A stretch of DNA of 32,000 nt from Methanogenium marinum (GCF_028912405.1 NZ_JAKELO010000002.1:969276-1001275), one strand, 5' to 3'; shown: positions 9,035 to 15,842, counted from the stretch's first letter. The notes: generated by a model from the letters alone, not told the origin. A program made the numbers and translations.

Positions 9035-9770
9035 CAGAGGGCTGAGCGTTCCATTGTATGGGCACTGCATGTCAGATGCACCCGTACAACGGAAGGCCCC
9101 CATCATGGGACACATAATACCGGAATGAGTAGCCCGATTCAGGTTGAGAGGAAGAGTCTCTTCCTGAACGCACAAAACCACCAGGGCCATCCATCAGGTT
9201 TGTGGGAAGGATGGGTGTTATACTGGAGCGGTGTATGACCCCCTTTGCCTATCCATCGATGCGGTAGACAAAAGAGGAGCAGACCTTGTGATACGACCAC
9301 TGGCTGTATGAAACCCCCGCCATGAGATTGGATTTGCTCCTGTAAGGGAGAGTTGATGATTCCACATTGGAAGAGGGGGAGCAGGGGTTGAACACAGGTT
9401 TGTGCAGACGGAAGGGAGCTAAAAAACACCAGCGAGCTGACCTGAGTAAGGGAATGCTCTGAATGAGCGTTGGGCGAAAAACCCCTTTAGGCCGAATACT
9501 ACTGGTGATCTGAGGCGGGTACAAAAAACATGGGGTATGGTTCCATGCCAATATACCTGCTTCCCGAAGCCCCCTTCCGAAAGGGTCTTTAGCATCCGGT
9601 TCTGATATCCTCATCAGAGCATCGGGGTTATCTGAATATAACTCTTTACATTCGCACAATTGTTAATAATAATTAATTACCAAAAACCAGACACTCTTCT
9701 GCTATTTCCTTTGACAAAAAATACCTGCCAAACGTACTATTATGGCATTCCGGGACGAACGCATTCCTAT

Positions 9771-11018
9771 ATGTTGAAACCGCTGCAGGTTGAGACCTGG
9801 GTGCAGTCCCGCCGGTCTGACCTTGATGATGTACGTGAGCCGGTCGAGGCAATAATCCGGCAGGTGCGGGAGGGAAAGGACGCTGCACTCCGGGATTTGA
9901 CTGCCCGGTTTGACGGAATCGAAATAGATGATTTCCGCGTGACAGAAGAGGAGATTGAGGCGGCCTATGATGAGGTTGACACCGAAATCACGGAACGCCT
10001 CATCGAGGCAGAAGCACGGATAACACAGTTCCACGAACTCCAAAAGCGTACCGGGATGTGGCTGCAGGAGACCGAGCCCGGTATCACTCTCGGAGTGAAG
10101 ACGACAGCTCTGCACCGTATCGGGGCCTATGTCCCCGGCGGGCGGGCCGCATACCCGTCCACCGCCCTGATGACGGCCATCCCTGCACGGGTGGCAGGTG
10201 TCAAAGAAATCTGCTGCTGCACACCGCCGCCCATCCATCCCCTGACGTTGGTAGCCCTTGATATCGCCGGTGTCACTGAAATATACCGCCTCGGCGGAGC
10301 ACAGGCAATCGCTGCAATGGCTCTCGGGACGGAATCAGTAAAGCCAGTCCAGAAAATAGTCGGGCCGGGGAACATCTTTGTGACTGCAGCAAAGATGATG
10401 CTGCGTGACCATGCAGAGATTGACTTTCCGGCAGGCCCGTCTGAGATTGGCATCATCGCAGACGCAACCGCGATACCTGAATATATCGCAGCAGACATCA
10501 TGGCCCAGGCAGAGCATGACCCGAAGGCCGCCTGTGTCCTTGTCACAACCGATCCAAAAATTGCAGAGGCAGCGTCTGCGGAAGTGGCCCGGATGTTCCA
10601 GGAGAGTCCACGGAAAGAAATCATCGAAAAGGCACTCGCCAACTCCGGCTACATCATCGCAGATACGCTGAGTGAAGCCATTCGTCTGATAAATGAGATT
10701 GCACCCGAACACCTCTCCATCCAGGTGGCTGACACCTTTTCCGTCCTATCAAAGATAGAAAATGCAGGCTCAATCTTTGCCGGGCCCTTCACCGCGGTTG
10801 CCTGCGGAGACTATGCCTCCGGCACAAACCATGTTCTCCCGACAGCAGGATATGCCCGGATGTACTCAGGCCTCAATGTCGACCACTTCTGCAAGACGTC
10901 AACCATTCAGATGATTGACCGGGAAGGGCTTGAGGCGATTGGGGATATTGTCGAGACACTTGCCGATGCGGAAGGGCTGCATGCCCATGCTGAGTCGGTG
11001 CGGATTCGGCGACGATAA
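9771..11018 (+). CDS. hisD: Histidinol dehydrogenase
   Basis: Full-length HisD pattern ([20 protein letters not shown]). The start is set at ATG 9771 ([10 protein letters not shown]). The TTG at 9660 lies in an AT-rich promoter-like tract. Confidence 0.93.
10696..11018 (+). repeat. Direct repeat copy A: 3' end of the intact hisD, repeated at 12108-12430
   Basis: By hand alignment there are about 29 mismatches in ~323 nt against 12108-12430, with no indels. Both copies run to a stop codon (TAA versus TGA). Confidence 0.9.
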
Positions 11019-11044
11019 AAACCATAGAAACCAGAAATCAACTA

Positions 11045-11062
11045 TTTTTGAATACAATTTTT
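11045..11062 (+). terminator. Two T5 runs after the hisD stop
   Basis: TTTTT occurs at 11045-11049 and 11058-11062, within 45 nt of the TAA. Confidence 0.35.
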
Positions 11063-11197
11063 AGAATTTCGCAGAACAGGGAAGTATGTGATGCATAAAA
11101 CCGGAATGTCACGGAAAACATCCAACCAACAGCATCCTCACAAAAACGAATACATACCCGACAAATATCAGGATATCAATACGGGGACATACTATTC

Positions 11198-11413
11198 ATG
11201 AAACTTGACATTGTTCTTGAAAAGGAAGAAAGCGGAGGATATTCAGCCCACTGTCCAGCCCTTAAGGGGTGCCACTCCCAGGGAATGACCGGGGAAGAAG
11301 CACTCAAAAATATGCAGGAAGCCATTGAACTTTATCTGGAAGTCACCCACGATATTGCCTCCCGGCAGGTAACATCCCGGCCGGGTTCAATCCTCATTGA
11401 TCTCGCAGTATGA
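11198..11413 (+). CDS. hicB: HicB-family antitoxin (UPF0150-type, short form)
   Basis: LEKEESGGYSAHCPALKGCHSQGMTGEEALKNMQEAIELYLE is the classic HicB N-terminal domain pattern. Confidence 0.75.
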   Translation: MKLDIVLEKEESGGYSAHCPALKGCHSQGMTGEEALKNMQEAIELYLEVTHDIASRQVTSRPGSILIDLAV

Positions 11414-11539
11414 GTTACAAAACACCTGTTCCCGATATTCGGCAAAGAGATGGTCCATGTATTTTTAAAAGTCAGATTTCAGGTTGAACATAAACGCCAA
11501 GGATGCAAACACGATTTGTTTATGCCCCTAAATATCTGA
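11414..11539 (+). pseudogene. hicA: Truncated HicA-like mRNA interferase toxin remnant (41 codons)
   Basis: The ORF is too short for the ORF track. A GTG directly abuts the hicB stop. VTKHLFPIFGKEMVHVFLKVRFQVEHKRQGCKHDLFMP resembles the first half of HicA (..SGKEvikaLeklGFevvrqkGSHhil.), then stops early. Confidence 0.4.
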
Positions 11540-11619
11540 GGACCGCATCTTTCACATTGTGGGATGATCCGGGAGTCAGGCACCCATACCTTTTTTTCCT
11601 TTTTGACGAATGTGGCTTT

Positions 11620-12051
11620 ATGGTTTCAGAATATTATAAAAATGCAGAGGGGTGGGGAGTTTTTATCGGTGGGCCCATCGCGATTTTGTATGTATTACTA
11701 AATATCTATTATAATCATTCAATTCATGAAGCACCCATATCTGGCTGGATTTACGTTGGGCCATTTTCATTCATAGTTTCTGCTGGCTTATTTATTTACC
11801 TGCACCTGATATCACGCAGGAATCTTACCGAAGAGGAGGATATAAAAAAGGCTCATCAAAACTATCTGATAGTGATCGCTTCTCTTATTGGTTTTTTTAC
11901 CTGGCTTCTTGTGCTTGTCATTCTTGACCTGATTCACCTTGACATAAATGTGCTCTTGTCAGTATTGTGCGGAAATGCTGTTATTTTACTACTATATTAT
12001 CTGTTGAGAGCGAGTGACAATAAACGAAGTAAAACTGTTGTTAACCAGTAA
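11620..12051 (+). CDS. Small AT-rich hypothetical membrane protein (about 4 TM)
   Basis: ORF 11503-12051. The internal ATG at 11620 (MVSEYYKN...) avoids overlap with the hicA remnant. Four hydrophobic helices; no recognisable family. Confidence 0.45.
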   Translation: MVSEYYKNAEGWGVFIGGPIAILYVLLNIYYNHSIHEAPISGWIYVGPFSFIVSAGLFIYLHLISRRNLTEEEDIKKAHQNYLIVIASLIGFFTWLLVLVILDLIHLDINVLLSVLCGNAVILLLYYLLRASDNKRSKTVVNQ

Positions 12052-12107
12052 TTTGTCTTTTAAAAAATACTGGTTCATGAACAGGGAAGCCATCTCTCTG
12101 ATGAACA

Positions 12108-12430
12108 AGATTGCACCCGAACATCTCTCCATCCAGGTGGCTGACACCTTTGCCGTGCTCTCAAAAATAGAAAACGCAGGCTCAATCTTTGCCGGCCCCT
12201 TCACCGCGGTTGCCTGCGGAGACTATGCATCAGGCACAAACCACGTCCTCCCAACAGCAGGATATGCCCGGATGTATTCAGGCCTCAATGTCGACCACTT
12301 CTGCAAGACATCGTCCATCCAGATGATCGACCAGGAAGGGCTTGAGGCGATTGGCGATATCGTTGAGACCCTTGCCGATGCGGAAGGGCTGCATGCACAT
12401 GCTGAGTCGGTAAGGATTCGACGACGGTGA
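12108..12430 (+). pseudogene. hisD: Orphan 3' fragment of hisD (last ~107 codons): direct repeat copy B, displaced or imported gene end
   Basis: Encodes [19 protein letters not shown]...ESVRIRRR, with only 3 aa differences from hisD residues at 10699-11015. The sequence upstream of 12108 is unrelated to hisD. Confidence 0.9.
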
Positions 12431-12442
12431 TAAATGGAATTA

Positions 12443-12448
12443 TTTTTT
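12443..12448 (+). terminator. Oligo-T (T6) run after the hisD fragment stop
   Basis: TTTTTT lies 13 nt after the TGA at 12428-12430. Confidence 0.3.
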
Positions 12449-12756
12449 GATGAGGAAACAGACCGAAGCTGATTCATATAATTTCAGAGCGTTCATTTGA
12501 CCCCATATGATTAATGAAGATAAATTTACATTTTAAATTCTCATCACCGTTCTTCTTCATTTTAGTGATATACCACTTTTGTAGAAAATTGATATTTCAT
12601 TTTTAAATTCAATTTTTAAGGATTTTTTTGGCCTCGTATAAATCCTTCAAAAAAACATTGTGCAAGCATTATATGAAAAGGAAAATGAATAATCCATCAA
12701 TCTCAATTTTTCCAATGATCACTCGATTGATTCCATAATTGATAGTTGATAATCAG

Positions 12757-13677
12757 TTATTTTTCAATTCCCGTCCCGGATCTATCATTCAAATTTCGTT
12801 TGAATTCTGCATATTTACACTGGCACTTTAAAAATTCATGTAGTTTATTCAGATCTAATTCTGCGTCTTCATAATCTTTAGGGTATATTACAATAATTAA
12901 ATTGTTTGTAAACCTTTTTTCTGAGCATGCTGCTATAAATGATTTTATTATTTCCTGAATTATTATTTCTTTTTCAATCTCAATTCTTGAAAAACCAGTG
13001 CCTAATATTGGAATTACTAATGGATCTGTGCTTCCATGAGATGAAATATAATCCCATAAATTCGAAAGTGATAATAATATATTCTCATAAGAAGAGGAGG
13101 CCACTCCGTATCTATTCATTTCAGCCAGAGCTAAAAAGTATGCAGTAACATCATTATTTTTTATTTGAATTGTTTTACCTATTGGATATCTATTGCACTT
13201 TCCTGTTTTAATACTGTCAATAGTGAAATCATTTTCCAATTCAAGCTGTTTTTCAATTAATTCATCCAATAATTCGATTTTTCCTTCGAAATATTTGGTT
13301 GTAAATTGTCCCTGAATACTTTTTTTAAAAATAATTCCTTCTGTTAAATTAGTATCAAAAGTTGTATTCGTCCCAACAATATAATCCCCTTTTTGTTCAA
13401 AAAAATCTCCAATTACTATACTTATGGTAATATCACGGTTGTTTAATTTTTCATTTATAGAATTTATTGGTCGATTAATGAATACTGAAATAACCAGTGC
13501 TACCAGAATGAGAATAGCTAAAAACCAAACACCTAAGGAAACAATATATTGGCTACATATTTTTGGAATAAAATATGAAGATATTTCCAGAATTAACCAT
13601 AATGCACCTAATATTGCTAAAAAAAGGGAGAATATATTAATAATCCTCTTTTTTTGCAAATAATCTTTTAAAACCAT
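12757..13677 (-). CDS. Membrane-anchored Macro-like domain protein, type II Thoeris ThsA-like effector candidate
   Basis: Two N-terminal TM helices (IINIFSLFLAILGALWLILEI; IVSLGVWFLAILILVALVISVFI). The following domain has ITISIVIGDFF..GDYIVGTNTTFDT and LVIPILGTGFSRI, which fits Macro / ThsA-Macro patterns. The gene starts 12 nt downstream of the TIR gene and is very AT-rich. Confidence 0.6.
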   Translation of the reverse strand: MVLKDYLQKKRIINIFSLFLAILGALWLILEISSYFIPKICSQYIVSLGVWFLAILILVALVISVFINRPINSINEKLNNRDITISIVIGDFFEQKGDYIVGTNTTFDTNLTEGIIFKKSIQGQFTTKYFEGKIELLDELIEKQLELENDFTIDSIKTGKCNRYPIGKTIQIKNNDVTAYFLALAEMNRYGVASSSYENILLSLSNLWDYISSHGSTDPLVIPILGTGFSRIEIEKEIIIQEIIKSFIAACSEKRFTNNLIIVIYPKDYEDAELDLNKLHEFLKCQCKYAEFKRNLNDRSGTGIEK

Positions 13678-13689
13678 TATATTTCCATA

Positions 13690-14193
13690 TTACAGCCCTA
13701 AATTCGTATAAACAGTATCTGTATAGTAATATGGTCCTTGTTTTCCTTCTTTCTTATATTCATCATGTGAATCAGGCCAATTATCTAATGCATGTTGAAT
13801 TATTTTGGCATTAAAACTTGTGTAAATAACAAGTTTATCTTTTATTGCTGATGGACATTTTTCAGAATCTCTTGATCTAAGGCCGTTTAAATTAACCCCA
13901 ATTATAGGCAATCCCATTTTTAATGCAACTTCCATTTCCCATTTTACAAATTTTGTTAAATATCTTGTTTTATCACCAATGAGAACAACAAATGCTTTTG
14001 AATTGGCAAACCGTTCTCTTAATTTTCGCTTTATTGTTTCTTCAGAACTTGAATCTAATGCGTTATTTAGATCATGTGCATCATTAAAATTAAAATCAAT
14101 TCCATCATTATTTTTCCATGCTACCATGAGCCGGTAATAATGAATATCAGTATCACCGTCAAAACAAACGTACGTTTTATTTCTATATGCCAT
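13690..14193 (-). CDS. TIR-like domain protein (ThsB / DUF1863 MTH538-type)
   Basis: YRNKTYVCFDGDTDIHYYRLMVAWKNN..FNFNDAHDL and AFVVLIGDKTRYLTKFVKWEMEVALKMGLPIIGVNL match the conserved blocks of ThsB-type TIR proteins, including the W-E glutamate. Confidence 0.85.
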   Translation of the reverse strand: MAYRNKTYVCFDGDTDIHYYRLMVAWKNNDGIDFNFNDAHDLNNALDSSSEETIKRKLRERFANSKAFVVLIGDKTRYLTKFVKWEMEVALKMGLPIIGVNLNGLRSRDSEKCPSAIKDKLVIYTSFNAKIIQHALDNWPDSHDEYKKEGKQGPYYYTDTVYTNLGL

Positions 14194-14510
14194 ATATACA
14201 CCAAAATGAATATGCTGTGATTCATTTTAATTTAGAATAAGCTTCTGATATGAATAACCACCATACAAAAAATTACACCCTCACATAAGCCCGGAGCGTG
14301 CCGTTCTCAGTCGGGACAACCCATAACATCCTCTCAAAATATCCACCAATAGCGGCCCCAATATAATCCACAATATAAAAATGGTTTAGCAAATAAAAGG
14401 CACAGCATCCACATTCTTCCGGCAACAAACAAGAACTAAAAATACGCCCATTTTGTCCCCAAATCCCAAAACACAGGGAGTCTAAAAAGGTGAAAAAGGG
14501 GAGAAAAGGG

Positions 14511-15842
14511 TCACGGCAAATACCCGTCCACACACTCCAAAAACCGCTCCATCGTCTCCCGCGAATACGGCCCTTCCTCATAGGCCGTGACAATCGTCAT
14601 TGCACCCTTAAAGGTGGAGAGGGCCATGAGGAAACCATACGGCCAGCAGACACACGGAAGGAGACAGACATCCCGGAGACCAAGGGGGCGGCCGTCCGTT
14701 CCCTTTAGCGGGAGAAAGTCTTCTTCCCTGAATATCCCGATATTCGAGAATACCGGATTTTTCTGGCCTGTCGTTTCGTACATCTGCATCATCCCGTCAA
14801 AAAACTCTTTGACCGCAGGCATACCACCTGCACAAATATCCTCATAGAAGAGGATGCACCCAAGTCCCATTCCAAGACCCTCCGCTTTCCGCTGTTTTGT
14901 CACTGTTGTTACCTGGCCGATGACATCCTCCAACCGTGCGTCTTCAACGGCGGTGATGGTAACCTCGTAGGCGACCGAGAGGTTCAATGGCGGATACTCC
15001 TTCGGGCCGTTTGCATCAGTGAGGGGGCGTCGGAGGTCTGCAGAAGTGAGAAGGGAACGTGGTGCATCGATATCTGCAGGGTCGTCCCGGACAGCACGAA
15101 AGGCCAAAAAAAAGGCACCGATCATGATGTCATTTACTGTGGCACCATGTTCTTTCCCAAACTCTTTTGCCCGCCGGAGCCGGTCGGACGAAAGGGTTCG
15201 TGAGGCAATCCGGGAATTCCCCTTTTCCATTCGTTCGGTGGGGAACCGCCATCGGTCCACAAAGGGCTCCTCGTTTTGTTGCGCCTCTTTCATCTCCTCC
15301 GCCGTGAACCTGGCAAGAACCGGACCGGTGCTGCGGTCGTACCACCCGGTGGGGGCGGGCCGGAAGTCCGAATCTGTTTCAATACCCCGATAGTTTGCAA
15401 AGAGCTGCCGGGCCAGATCCCTGAGGCCGCCTGCGTCACAGAAACCGTGGTGGCAGGTGACCGTTACCCGGTCGCCTCCCTTTTCCCGTGACAGGCTGAC
15501 CCGCAGTTGGGGCCCGTTCCGGACGTCAAGGGGTGCGGGGGGAGACTCAGGAGGCATCGGATTATCATCTCCATCTCCATCATTAGACGGAAGACAAACA
15601 AAGGCCCGCTCCCACTCTCCTTCAGGAATCTCGTCCCAGCAGGGCATACCGTCCCCTTCCGCAAACCGTGACCGGAGATAGGGATTTGATTCGAGCAGGC
15701 GCATGGTGGCCATCCGCAGCACCGCTTCGTCGAGGTGCCCGTCAAACGCAAAGACGATGTGCATCGTCGGGTCATAGATACGCTCAAAATAGACATTGAA
15801 GAGGTCAAAGGCAGGTGCGGGATGGCCGGGGGGACAGATCAT
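14511..15842 (-). CDS. Stand-alone condensation-domain-like acyltransferase (HHxxxDG superfamily)
   Basis: The 443-aa ORF carries VTCHHGFCDAGG (HHxxxD.G) at the position expected for condensation / WS-DGAT / PapA5-like enzymes. GC is host-like. Confidence 0.6.
   Translation of the reverse strand: MICPPGHPAPAFDLFNVYFERIYDPTMHIVFAFDGHLDEAVLRMATMRLLESNPYLRSRFAEGDGMPCWDEIPEGEWERAFVCLPSNDGDGDDNPMPPESPPAPLDVRNGPQLRVSLSREKGGDRVTVTCHHGFCDAGGLRDLARQLFANYRGIETDSDFRPAPTGWYDRSTGPVLARFTAEEMKEAQQNEEPFVDRWRFPTERMEKGNSRIASRTLSSDRLRRAKEFGKEHGATVNDIMIGAFFLAFRAVRDDPADIDAPRSLLTSADLRRPLTDANGPKEYPPLNLSVAYEVTITAVEDARLEDVIGQVTTVTKQRKAEGLGMGLGCILFYEDICAGGMPAVKEFFDGMMQMYETTGQKNPVFSNIGIFREEDFLPLKGTDGRPLGLRDVCLLPCVCWPYGFLMALSTFKGAMTIVTAYEEGPYSRETMERFLECVDGYLP

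What the first reader, a model, noticed from the sequence alone, without database searches (positions are those of the whole stretch)
12757..14193. TIR plus TM-Macro two-gene cassette (type II Thoeris-like) on foreign DNA in an archaeal genome
Two minus-strand genes 12 nt apart occupy the most AT-rich DNA of the window. The first (167 aa) is a clear ThsB / DUF1863-type TIR-like protein (FDGDTDIHYY..MVAWK; KWEMEVA glutamate). The second (306 aa) has two N-terminal TM helices followed by a domain whose conserved blocks (IVIGDFF..DYIVGTNTTFDT; PILGTGFSRI) look like the Macro domain of type II Thoeris ThsA. That architecture, a TIR signal producer with a membrane-anchored Macro-domain effector, is established for Bacillus type II Thoeris. 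It has not, to my knowledge, been studied in methanogenic archaea. Open questions are the infection trigger, the signalling nucleotide, and whether a bacterial-style membrane effector works in an ether-lipid membrane. The pair appears to have been acquired horizontally from a low-GC donor.
Basis: partly seen in the sequence, partly recalled or inferred. Interest (0 to 1): 0.85.

Follow-up and report, generated by a model that had tools for sequence, protein, structure and literature searches.

The report
Type II Thoeris cassette in a methanogen
Two adjacent genes in the archaeon Methanogenium marinum are a textbook bacterial-type "type II Thoeris" antiviral system (a TIR signal-making enzyme plus a membrane-anchored Macro-domain effector). 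It arrived by horizontal transfer, so this is a rare host for a known system, not a new kind of system.

Summary
Two minus-strand ORFs, 167 aa (13690-14193) and 306 aa (12757-13677), lie 12 nt apart in the lowest-GC DNA of the window (0.28 against about 0.55).

Both match curated Thoeris models end to end:
- Pfam: ThsB_TIR 2e-18 and ThsA_Macro 5e-51.
- PADLOC: ThsB 2.4e-80 and ThsA 4.9e-73.

The TIR protein is 43% identical over its full length to E. coli ThsB2 (PDB 8V6T). It keeps the active-site Tyr8/Glu86 pair and the C-terminal Tyr-rich tail. The 306-aa protein has two TM helices. Its predicted Macro domain best matches solved ThsA Macro structures (TM-score 0.81-0.84).

In 48 of 53 genomes that carry a relative of the effector, a full-length ThsB gene sits immediately upstream on the same strand.

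The host is Methanogenium marinum. A related Methanogenium-like contig carries the same cassette at the same locus. Synonymous divergence there is about five times lower than in the adjacent hisD gene, and dN/dS is 0.13-0.32. The cassette was therefore shared recently and is under purifying selection.

The likely mechanism, inferred from homologs, is an infection-triggered His-ADPR-type signal, Macro binding, effector oligomerisation and membrane damage.

Verdict: a new member of a known kind in an unusual host. Interest is modest.

The parts
13690..14193 (-). thsB: a 167-aa TIR-like signal synthase or sensor of ThsB 'subfamily 9' (EcThsB2-like). Key residues are Y8 (active-site Tyr), W26xxxD30, E86 (catalytic Glu), and the C-terminal tail Y155-Y157 and Y162.
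   Evidence: Pfam PF08937 at 2e-18. PADLOC PDLC00429 at 2.4e-80, covering 1-167 of 167. PDB 8V6T (EcThsB2) at 5.4e-34 over the full length. Global identity is 43%, with Y8->Y8, E89->E86, W25->W26, Y159->Y157 and Y164->Y162. E86, W85, W26 and F11-D12-G13 are invariant and D14 is kept in 45 of 47 relatives.
12757..13677 (-). thsA: a 306-aa TM-Macro effector.
   Evidence: Pfam PF20016 at 5e-51, residues 85-265 covering 183/183 profile positions. PADLOC PDLC00414 at 4.9e-73, residues 17-284. PDB sequence hits 8V6Q at 1.3e-15 and 8R66 at 2e-12. AF2 model plus Foldseek.
13477..13644 (-). [quoted passage not shown]
   Evidence: Kyte-Doolittle 19-residue windows score at least 1.6 at starts 10-20 and 39-56. 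The AF2 model has long helices at 9-36 and 38-67. PADLOC ThsA models align from residue 6-17 onward.
12883..13425 (-). The Macro (signal-binding) domain of ThsA, aa 85-265. The inferred ligand pocket is D91, I121/Q122, Q124, T227-G228, S230, R231 and Y265.
   Evidence: Residues were mapped from the alignments onto the published contacts of BaThsA (D100, N133, Q135, R240, Y277; 10.1101/2024.01.03.573942) and EcThsA (D83, L113, N114, S217, G218, T220, H259; PMC11204291).
14194..14270 (-). AT-rich leader upstream of thsB. It contains GGTG 5 nt before the ATG (Shine-Dalgarno-like) and A/T-rich TATA-like stretches (TTATTCTAAATTAAAA) about 45-60 nt upstream.
   Evidence: Read directly from the sequence. 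No functional test was done. The sigma-70 scan is not above shuffled expectation (17 sites against 13.0 +/- 3.6).
12434..12756 (-). AT-rich 3' flank of the cassette (GC 0.24-0.32) containing a T7 run. It forms the other end of the low-GC island (about 12434-14270).
   Evidence: Sliding-window GC and identity to L054. No Rfam hit. Only ORFs of 42 aa or fewer lie within this flank.

Best explanation
This is a two-gene type II (TM-Macro) Thoeris antiviral system that Methanogenium acquired horizontally from bacteria.

Shown here:
- ThsB is a TIR-like protein of the EcThsB2/'subfamily 9' class, with the Tyr8-Glu86 active-site pair and a Tyr-rich C-terminal tail.
- ThsA has two N-terminal TM helices and a ThsA-type Macro domain.
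- The thsB-thsA gene order and adjacency are conserved across many phyla.
- The cassette is compositionally foreign, sits between housekeeping genes, and is under purifying selection in two Methanogenium lineages.

Inferred from characterised homologs:
- On viral infection, ThsB uses NAD+ to make an ADP-ribose conjugate, most likely histidine-ADPR.
- The signal binds the Macro pocket of ThsA. D91 would contact the adenine, Y265 would stack on it, and R231 would contact the histidine carboxylate.
- Ligand binding drives higher-order oligomerisation of the Macro domains and clustering of the TM helices. This damages the cytoplasmic membrane or arrests growth, and so aborts virus propagation.
For: Family membership.

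Conserved residues: one search shows E86, W85 and W26 in 47 of 47 relatives. In the 24-sequence ThsA alignment, R231 is kept in 23, D91 in 22 and Q122 in 24.

Gene linkage: 48 of 53 loci have a 167-aa ThsB (54-67% identity) immediately upstream on the same strand. The same pairing is seen in metagenome contigs L054, L055, L056, L060 and L061.

Selection in archaea: between the window and L054, ThsA has dN/dS 0.13 and ThsB 0.32. Both ORFs are intact in both lineages.

Mechanism from the literature:
- His-ADPR is produced by the Bacillus type II ThsB and is bound by the Macro domain (10.1101/2024.01.03.573942).
- Nucleotide-induced Macro oligomerisation enables TM clustering. BaThsB shares the Tyr-containing active site of subfamily 9 (PMC11204291).
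- In E. coli, thsA plus thsB2 alone confer defence, and both the TM helices and the ThsB2 WxxxE tryptophan are required (10.64898/2026.01.22.701046).
Against: There is no functional evidence in any archaeon.

Purified EcThsB2, the closest solved relative, showed no NADase activity in vitro (PMC11204291).

This ThsA clade differs systematically from the characterised ones at two ribose-contacting positions. Asn133 of BaThsA (Asn114 of EcThsA) is Gln122 here, invariant in 24 of 24. Ser194 of BaThsA (Ser175 of EcThsA) is Ala185 here, in 20 of 24. The Macro domain is only 22-25% identical to solved ThsA domains, so the exact signal could differ.

The E. coli thsA-thsB2 system caused growth arrest without markers of cell death, so 'membrane pore' is not settled even in bacteria.

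Whether two bacterial-type TM helices insert and act in an archaeal ether-lipid membrane is unknown. No virus of Methanogenium is available to name a trigger.
Confidence: 0.8

Rival explanations
1. The architecture is the same, but the second messenger is not His-ADPR. ThsB would make another ADPR conjugate or an imidazole-type adenine dinucleotide, read by a Macro pocket tuned differently from those of Bacillus and E. coli.
For: Q122 replaces the N-ribose-contacting Asn (24 of 24 sequences) and A185 replaces the Ser (20 of 24) in this ThsA clade. Position 8 of ThsB, the active-site Tyr of EcThsB2, is Phe in 25 and Tyr in 22 of 47 close relatives, so active-site chemistry varies within the family. 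EcThsA binds ADPR and IAD, and EcThsB1 makes IAD or histamine conjugates rather than His-ADPR (PMC11204291).
Against: The Arg that contacts the histidine carboxylate (BaThsA R240) is kept as R231 in 23 of 24 sequences. The adenine contacts D91 and Y265 are kept in the window protein. The window ThsB itself has the Tyr8/Glu86 pair, which Shi et al. link to the His-ADPR-producing BaThsB.
Confidence: 0.2
2. The cassette is an inert passenger. It would be a bacterial cassette dropped into the Methanogenium chromosome that is not expressed, or does not work, in an archaeal cell because of the foreign promoter, the ether-lipid membrane or the lack of a cognate trigger.
For: GC is 0.28 against 0.55, so codon usage is far from the host's. 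There are no neighbouring defence genes. There is no expression or functional evidence. Only 1 of 53 genomic loci found elsewhere is archaeal.
Against: Both ORFs are intact, with all key residues, in two lineages. dN/dS of 0.13 and 0.32 indicates purifying selection since they last shared the cassette. There is a GGTG Shine-Dalgarno-like element and A/T-rich promoter-like sequence upstream. An independent archaeal occurrence (Halobacteriota MAG) falls in a different clade, which suggests repeated retention in archaea.
Confidence: 0.12
3. The cassette is a selfish addiction or inter-MGE competition module rather than host antiviral immunity. It would be maintained because it travels on mobile elements and kills cells that lose it or that acquire competitors.
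For: The same ThsB family is on conjugative and mobilizable bacterial plasmids. The cassette spread between Methanogenium lineages after they diverged (dS 0.06-0.08 against 0.40 for hisD). A HicB antitoxin-bearing insertion lies next to it.
Against: Experimentally tested members defend against phages and need both genes. No integrase, transposase or replication gene accompanies the cassette in the window. No relative was found in the IMG/VR viral contigs.
Confidence: 0.05

Closest known systems
E. coli CFT073 / ATCC 25922 type II Thoeris: ThsA(TM-Macro) + ThsB2 (PDB 8V6Q/8V6R and 8V6T; PMC11204291; 10.64898/2026.01.22.701046)
   Same: ThsB is 43% identical to EcThsB2 end to end, with the same Y8/Glu active-site pair, the WxxxE/D motif and the Tyr-rich C-terminal tail. 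ThsA has the same architecture of two TM helices plus a Macro domain, and the best structural match (TM-score 0.81). A minimal thsA+thsB2 pair is sufficient for defence in E. coli, which matches the two-gene layout here.
   Different: There is no second TIR gene (ThsB1). thsB is co-oriented directly upstream of thsA, not divergent. The Macro domain is only 23-25% identical, with N114->Q122, S175->A185 and H259->Y265. The host is an archaeon.
Bacillus amyloliquefaciens Y2 type II Thoeris (His-ADPR signalling; PDB 8R66, 9UUZ/9UV0; 10.1101/2024.01.03.573942)
   Same: It is a single ThsB plus a TM-Macro ThsA. The histidine-carboxylate Arg (R240->R231), adenine Asp (D100->D91), stacking Tyr (Y277->Y265) and Q135->Q124 are conserved.
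   Different: The ThsB is only distantly similar (E = 6e-8 to 9UV0, a 195-aa protein). N133->Q122 and S194->A185 differ. ThsA Macro identity is about 22-23%.
Type I Thoeris (ThsA SIR2-SLOG + TIR ThsB; 3'cADPR; NAD+ depletion)
   Same: It has the same logic of a TIR-domain sensor or signal producer plus a signal-activated effector.
   Different: No SIR2 or SLOG domain is present. The effector is membrane-anchored and non-enzymatic. ThsA Macro domains do not bind 2'/3'cADPR (PMC11204291).

Membership tests
Type II (TM-Macro) Thoeris | ThsB with a TIR-like domain (PF08937/DUF1863 or TIR) | tested here: met
   PF08937 at 2e-18, above the gathering score (67.1 against 21.2 bits). PADLOC ThsB models at 2.4e-80 over the full length. 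PDB 8V6T at 5.4e-34.
Type II (TM-Macro) Thoeris | Catalytic glutamate of the TIR active site | tested here: met
   E86 aligns with EcThsB2 E89, the active-site residue named in PMC11204291. It is invariant in 47 of 47 relatives.
ThsB subfamily 9 (EcThsB2-like, specific to TM-Macro systems) | Active-site tyrosine paired with the Glu, and a C-terminal tail of about 20 residues with conserved Tyr | tested here: met
   Y8 aligns with EcThsB2 Y8. Y157 and Y162 align with Y159 and Y164. Caveat: position 8 is Phe in 25 of 47 close relatives. Contact geometry was not checked, because no ThsB coordinates were analysed.
Type II (TM-Macro) Thoeris | ThsA with a C-terminal ThsA-type Macro domain | tested here: met
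   PF20016 at 5e-51, 183/183 profile positions. The AF2 model has pLDDT 83.8. The top 8 Foldseek PDB hits are ThsA Macro domains with TM-score 0.81-0.84, followed by generic macrodomains.
Type II (TM-Macro) Thoeris | Two N-terminal transmembrane helices in ThsA | tested here: met
   There are two hydrophobic segments at about aa 12-34 and 43-67, and the model has long helices there. No dedicated TM predictor was available.
Type II (TM-Macro) Thoeris | Signal-binding pocket residues of the Macro domain | tested here: inconclusive
   D91, Q124, T227-G228, R231 and Y265 correspond to published contacts. However, Asn (Ba133/Ec114) is Gln122 and Ser (Ba194/Ec175) is Ala185. The mapping is by sequence alignment only.
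Type II (TM-Macro) Thoeris | thsB and thsA adjacent, and co-occurring across genomes | tested here: met
   The gap here is 12 nt and both genes are on the same strand. 48 of 53 loci have a full-length ThsB directly upstream. Caveat: the loci were found with peptide patterns from this ThsA clade, so they sample that clade only.
Type II (TM-Macro) Thoeris | Infection-triggered production of His-ADPR, and protection from viruses | not testable with these tools
   This requires LC-MS and infection assays. It is known only for the Bacillus and E. coli members.
Type I Thoeris | ThsA with SIR2 NADase and SLOG domains | tested here: not met
   Pfam finds only PF20016 in the 306-aa protein. No SIR2 or SLOG protein was found in the neighbours scanned.

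The most novel reading that the evidence does not exclude
A bacterial TIR-to-Macro second-messenger immune system is functional and actively selected in methanogenic archaea. It entered Methanogenium from bacteria and then moved between Methanogenium lineages at the hisD locus after they diverged (cassette dS 0.06-0.08 against 0.40 for hisD). Its two-helix membrane effector would work in an ether-lipid membrane against archaeal viruses, possibly with a signal slightly different from His-ADPR (the Q122/A185 pocket). This would be the first experimentally approachable case of Thoeris-type TIR signalling immunity in Archaea.
Probability: 0.5. Interest if true: 0.45.

Novelty: new member of a known kind. 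Interest (0 to 1): 0.3.

Why it matters
Thoeris biology has been worked out only in bacteria. A cleanly delimited, minimal thsB-thsA pair in a cultured methanogen, apparently under selection, gives a concrete test case for three questions:
- Does TIR/His-ADPR-type signalling operate in Archaea?
- Does a bacterial-type TM effector act on archaeal membranes?
- How do defence cassettes cross the domain boundary and then spread among related archaea?

It does not reveal a new mechanism or architecture. Standard defence-annotation pipelines would call it automatically.

Tried and rejected
- **Defence island or mobile element around the pair:** rejected. PADLOC finds nothing in 10 neighbouring or window proteins. 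The Pfam neighbours are hisD, an MFS molybdate transporter, a condensation-domain protein and trpA/trpB-like genes. There is no tRNA, and no integrase or transposase was seen.
- **Viral carriage:** the IMG/VR scan with the ThsA alignment found no relative.
- **Hidden RNA element or small gene in the AT-rich flanks:** there is no Rfam match at E <= 0.1 in 10900-14700. Only short ORFs of 42 aa or fewer lie within the 3' flank.
- **Bacterial promoter or terminator signals:** these are not above shuffled expectation, and the tool does not cover archaeal promoters.
- **HicA toxin remnant after HicB (about 11405-11527):** it looked HicA-like by eye, but Pfam gives no hit, so it is unsupported.
- **NCBIfam:** it has no specific model for either protein.
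- **Literature:** I looked for any report of Thoeris studied in methanogens or other archaea. I found only census-level statements.
- **Not done:** The full-length match to 8V6T (5e-34) already settles its fold.

Full report
**1. Observation**

The ORF list shows two minus-strand ORFs at exactly the stated coordinates: 13690-14193 (167 aa, ATG) and 12757-13677 (306 aa, ATG). They are separated by 12 nt (TATGGAAATATA on the coding strand).

The 1-kb composition windows covering the pair have the lowest GC of the 32-kb window, at 0.278-0.283. The flanking genes are at 0.53-0.57.

Exact-sequence look-up identifies the window as Methanogenium marinum chromosome. The proteins are WP_274924628 ('TIR domain-containing protein') and WP_274924627 ('macro domain-containing / DUF6430 protein'). 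The organism belongs to the Methanomicrobiales.

**2. What the two proteins are**

*Profile matches*
- The 167-aa protein matches Pfam ThsB_TIR (PF08937) at 2e-18.
- The 306-aa protein matches ThsA_Macro (PF20016) at 5e-51 over all 183 profile positions.
- PADLOC's Thoeris models match both end to end: ThsB PDLC00429 at 2.4e-80 over 1-167/167, and ThsA PDLC00414 at 4.9e-73 over residues 17-284.
- NCBIfam has no specific model for either protein.

*ThsB against solved structures*
- ThsB matches E. coli ThsB2 (8V6T) at 5.4e-34 over its full length.
- It matches the Bacillus-type ThsB 9UV0 only weakly, at 6e-8.
- A global alignment gives 43% identity to EcThsB2 and maps the published active-site pair Y8/E89 onto Y8/E86.
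- The WxxxE tryptophan W25 maps onto W26, in a W26xxxD30 motif.
- The tail tyrosines Y159 and Y164 map onto Y157 and Y162 (residue names from PMC11204291).
- In 47 relatives taken from genomic loci, E86, W85 and W26 are invariant, and the F11-D12-G13-D14 motif is nearly so (D14 in 45 of 47). Position 8 is split between F (25) and Y (22).
- The protein therefore belongs to the 'subfamily 9' ThsB class. Shi et al. found this class only in TM-Macro Thoeris systems, and they argue it includes the His-ADPR-producing Bacillus ThsB.

*ThsA*
- It has two hydrophobic segments at about aa 12-34 and 43-67.
- An AlphaFold2 model built on a 24-sequence alignment has mean pLDDT 83.8. It shows long N-terminal helices followed by an alpha/beta domain.
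- The eight best Foldseek PDB matches are the ThsA Macro structures 8V6R, 8V6Q, 8R66 and 8V6S (E 1.5e-15 to 5.7e-12, TM-score 0.81-0.84, 22-25% identity). Generic macrodomains follow.
- Mapping published ligand contacts through the alignments gives these correspondences:
  - BaThsA D100 / EcThsA D83 -> D91
  - Ba Q135 -> Q124
  - Ec S217-G218-T220 -> T227-G228-S230
  - Ba R240 (histidine carboxylate) -> R231
  - Ba Y277 / Ec H259 -> Y265
- Two ribose contacts differ systematically in this clade. Ba N133 / Ec N114 is Q122 (24 of 24 sequences), and Ba S194 / Ec S175 is A185 (20 of 24).

**3. Linkage and distribution**

I scanned one genome per GTDB species using peptide patterns from the ThsA alignment. 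This found 53 loci. In 48 of them a full-length 167-aa ThsB (54-67% identical) lies immediately upstream on the same strand. One of the five exceptions is cut by a contig end.

The same pairing occurs in every metagenome contig examined: L054, L055, L056, L060 and L061. Some of these also carry type I R-M, GmrSD and other defence genes.

Of the 53 loci, 52 are bacterial, from many phyla. One is archaeal, a Halobacteriota MAG (L002/L057). The ThsB family also occurs on bacterial plasmids next to 'macro domain-containing protein' genes. The hosts include Sinorhizobium, Brucella, Carnobacterium, Lactococcus, Vibrio and Synechococcus. No relative was found in IMG/VR viral contigs.

In an unsupported NJ tree of concatenated ThsB+ThsA, the Methanogenium pair groups with L055. 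It then groups with L056, L060, L061 and a Thermotogota MAG. The Halobacteriota MAG falls elsewhere. This suggests at least two separate entries into archaea.

Caveat: the loci were found with exact patterns from this ThsA clade, so they do not sample all type II Thoeris systems.

**4. History at the locus**

The cassette is a lone insertion between hisD and a condensation-domain gene. PADLOC finds no other defence protein nearby. There is no tRNA and no integrase or transposase.

A metagenome contig, L054, has flanks 80-90% identical to the window in nucleotide sequence. It is therefore a related Methanogenium-like organism; that assignment is inferred from the flanks only. It carries the same cassette at the same place.

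Identity to L054 is 97.2-97.5% across the two CDSs. It is 80% in the condensation gene and about 90% in hisD. The high-identity block roughly coincides with the low-GC island (high identity about 12634-14260 within island 12434-14270).

| Gene | dS | dN/dS |
|---|---|---|
| thsA | 0.083 | 0.13 |
| thsB | 0.063 | 0.32 |
| hisD | 0.40 | 0.09 |

These are Nei-Gojobori estimates. They imply two things:
- The cassette was shared between the two lineages well after they diverged. That could be by recombination through the conserved flanks or by a recent common acquisition.
- It has been under purifying selection while resident in archaea. This argues against a dead passenger.

Across 46 other loci the cassette is on average 9 GC points below its flanks. 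Low GC is therefore partly a property of this mobile cassette. The 27-point gap here is the largest seen.

**5. Mechanism**

*Shown here*
- Domain identity of both proteins.
- Conserved catalytic and binding residues.
- The TM-plus-Macro architecture.
- Conserved operon structure.
- Purifying selection on both genes.

*Inferred from characterised homologs*
- Infection activates ThsB, which converts NAD+ into an ADPR conjugate, most likely His-ADPR (Sabonis et al.).
- The Macro domain binds the conjugate.
- Macro domains oligomerise and cluster the TM helices (Shi et al.).
- This damages the membrane or arrests growth.

Englert et al. showed that thsA plus thsB2 suffice for defence in E. coli. 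That defence needs both TM helices and the ThsB2 WxxxE tryptophan, and it arrests growth without NAD+ depletion.

*Open points*
- EcThsB2 had no NADase activity in vitro.
- The Q122/A185 pocket variant leaves the exact ligand uncertain.
- Function in ether-lipid membranes is untested, and the archaeal trigger is unknown.
- A GGTG Shine-Dalgarno-like element lies 5 nt before the thsB ATG, with A/T-rich TATA-like stretches upstream. These are sequence readings only.

**6. Comparison with the known, and verdict**

Every testable defining feature of type II (TM-Macro) Thoeris is met. The defining features of type I (SIR2-SLOG) are absent.

The literature held here contains only census-level mentions of Thoeris in archaeal genomes. 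I found no experimental work in archaea or methanogens.

The finding is therefore a correctly identified new member of a known kind in a rare host. It comes with a clear inter-domain HGT signature and evidence of selection. It is useful as a test case but not surprising to a specialist.

Noticed in passing
window 10671-11018 and 12083-12430 (with 11019-12082 between): The last 348 bp of hisD are duplicated: 89.7% nt identity, dS 0.41 and dN/dS 0.08, so both copies evolved as functional hisD ends in different lineages. The copies bracket a 1.07-kb lower-GC insert carrying a HicB-family antitoxin (11198-11413) and an orphan 182-aa multi-TM protein (11503-12051). The related contig L054 lacks this insert, and there hisD directly abuts the Thoeris cassette. 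It looks like the remnant of an element that integrated into the hisD 3' end while carrying its own copy of that end. No integrase is present.
   Followed up: partly
window 12434-14270 versus L054: The cassette's synonymous divergence between M. marinum and the L054 organism (0.06-0.08) is about five times lower than that of the adjacent hisD (0.40). This implies lateral exchange or recent common acquisition of the cassette after the lineages split.
   Followed up: partly
ThsB residue 8 (window 14170-14172) across 47 relatives from loci L001-L052: The 'active-site tyrosine' position of EcThsB2 is Tyr in 22 and Phe in 25 of 47 close homologs (54-67% identical). All of them are paired with TM-Macro ThsA. 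The Tyr is therefore not universal within this ThsB family.
   Followed up: partly
ThsA residues 122 and 185 (window 13312-13314 and 13123-13125): This ThsA clade has an invariant Gln where BaThsA and EcThsA have the ribose-contacting Asn. It mostly has Ala where they have the ribose-contacting Ser. This may be a compensating pair or a differently tuned ligand pocket.
   Followed up: partly
L056 3052-3804 and the P0006 contig (genes at 426-1226): In two related metagenome loci (ThsA about 48-51% identical), a gene with HFX_2341_N / WHD_DUF6293 domains lies divergently just upstream of thsB. In L056 it also has a weak Csa3_N hit. It may be a ligand-sensing transcription regulator of the cassette. 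It is absent from the window.
   Followed up: no
L057 2755-3594: The Halobacteriota archaeon MAG that carries the other archaeal thsB-thsA pair also encodes a separate 279-aa TIR_2 protein about 4 kb upstream. The pair sits among thiolase, acyl-CoA ligase and ETF genes.
   Followed up: no
L055 2804-3007: The nearest non-Methanogenium cassette (73% identity over concatenated ThsB+ThsA, host unknown) is flanked by a gene fragment. By eye it resembles the C-terminus of an IS5/IS4-type DDE transposase (IERFFSWIE...RYDRYERSFLGFIHLG). The cassette GC is 0.31 against 0.46 in the flanks.
   Followed up: no
window 11405-11527: The frame following HicB reads GKEMVHVFLKVRFQVEHKRQGCKH, which looks like a truncated HicA toxin N-terminus by eye. 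Pfam gives no hit, so this is unsupported.
   Followed up: yes
window 9660-11018 next to 12757-14193: The cassette, whose homologs signal with histidine-ADPR, sits beside hisD (histidinol dehydrogenase, the last step of histidine synthesis). This is probably coincidence. Among the related loci whose gene tables I saw, hisD adjoins the cassette only in L054 (the same locus).
   Followed up: no
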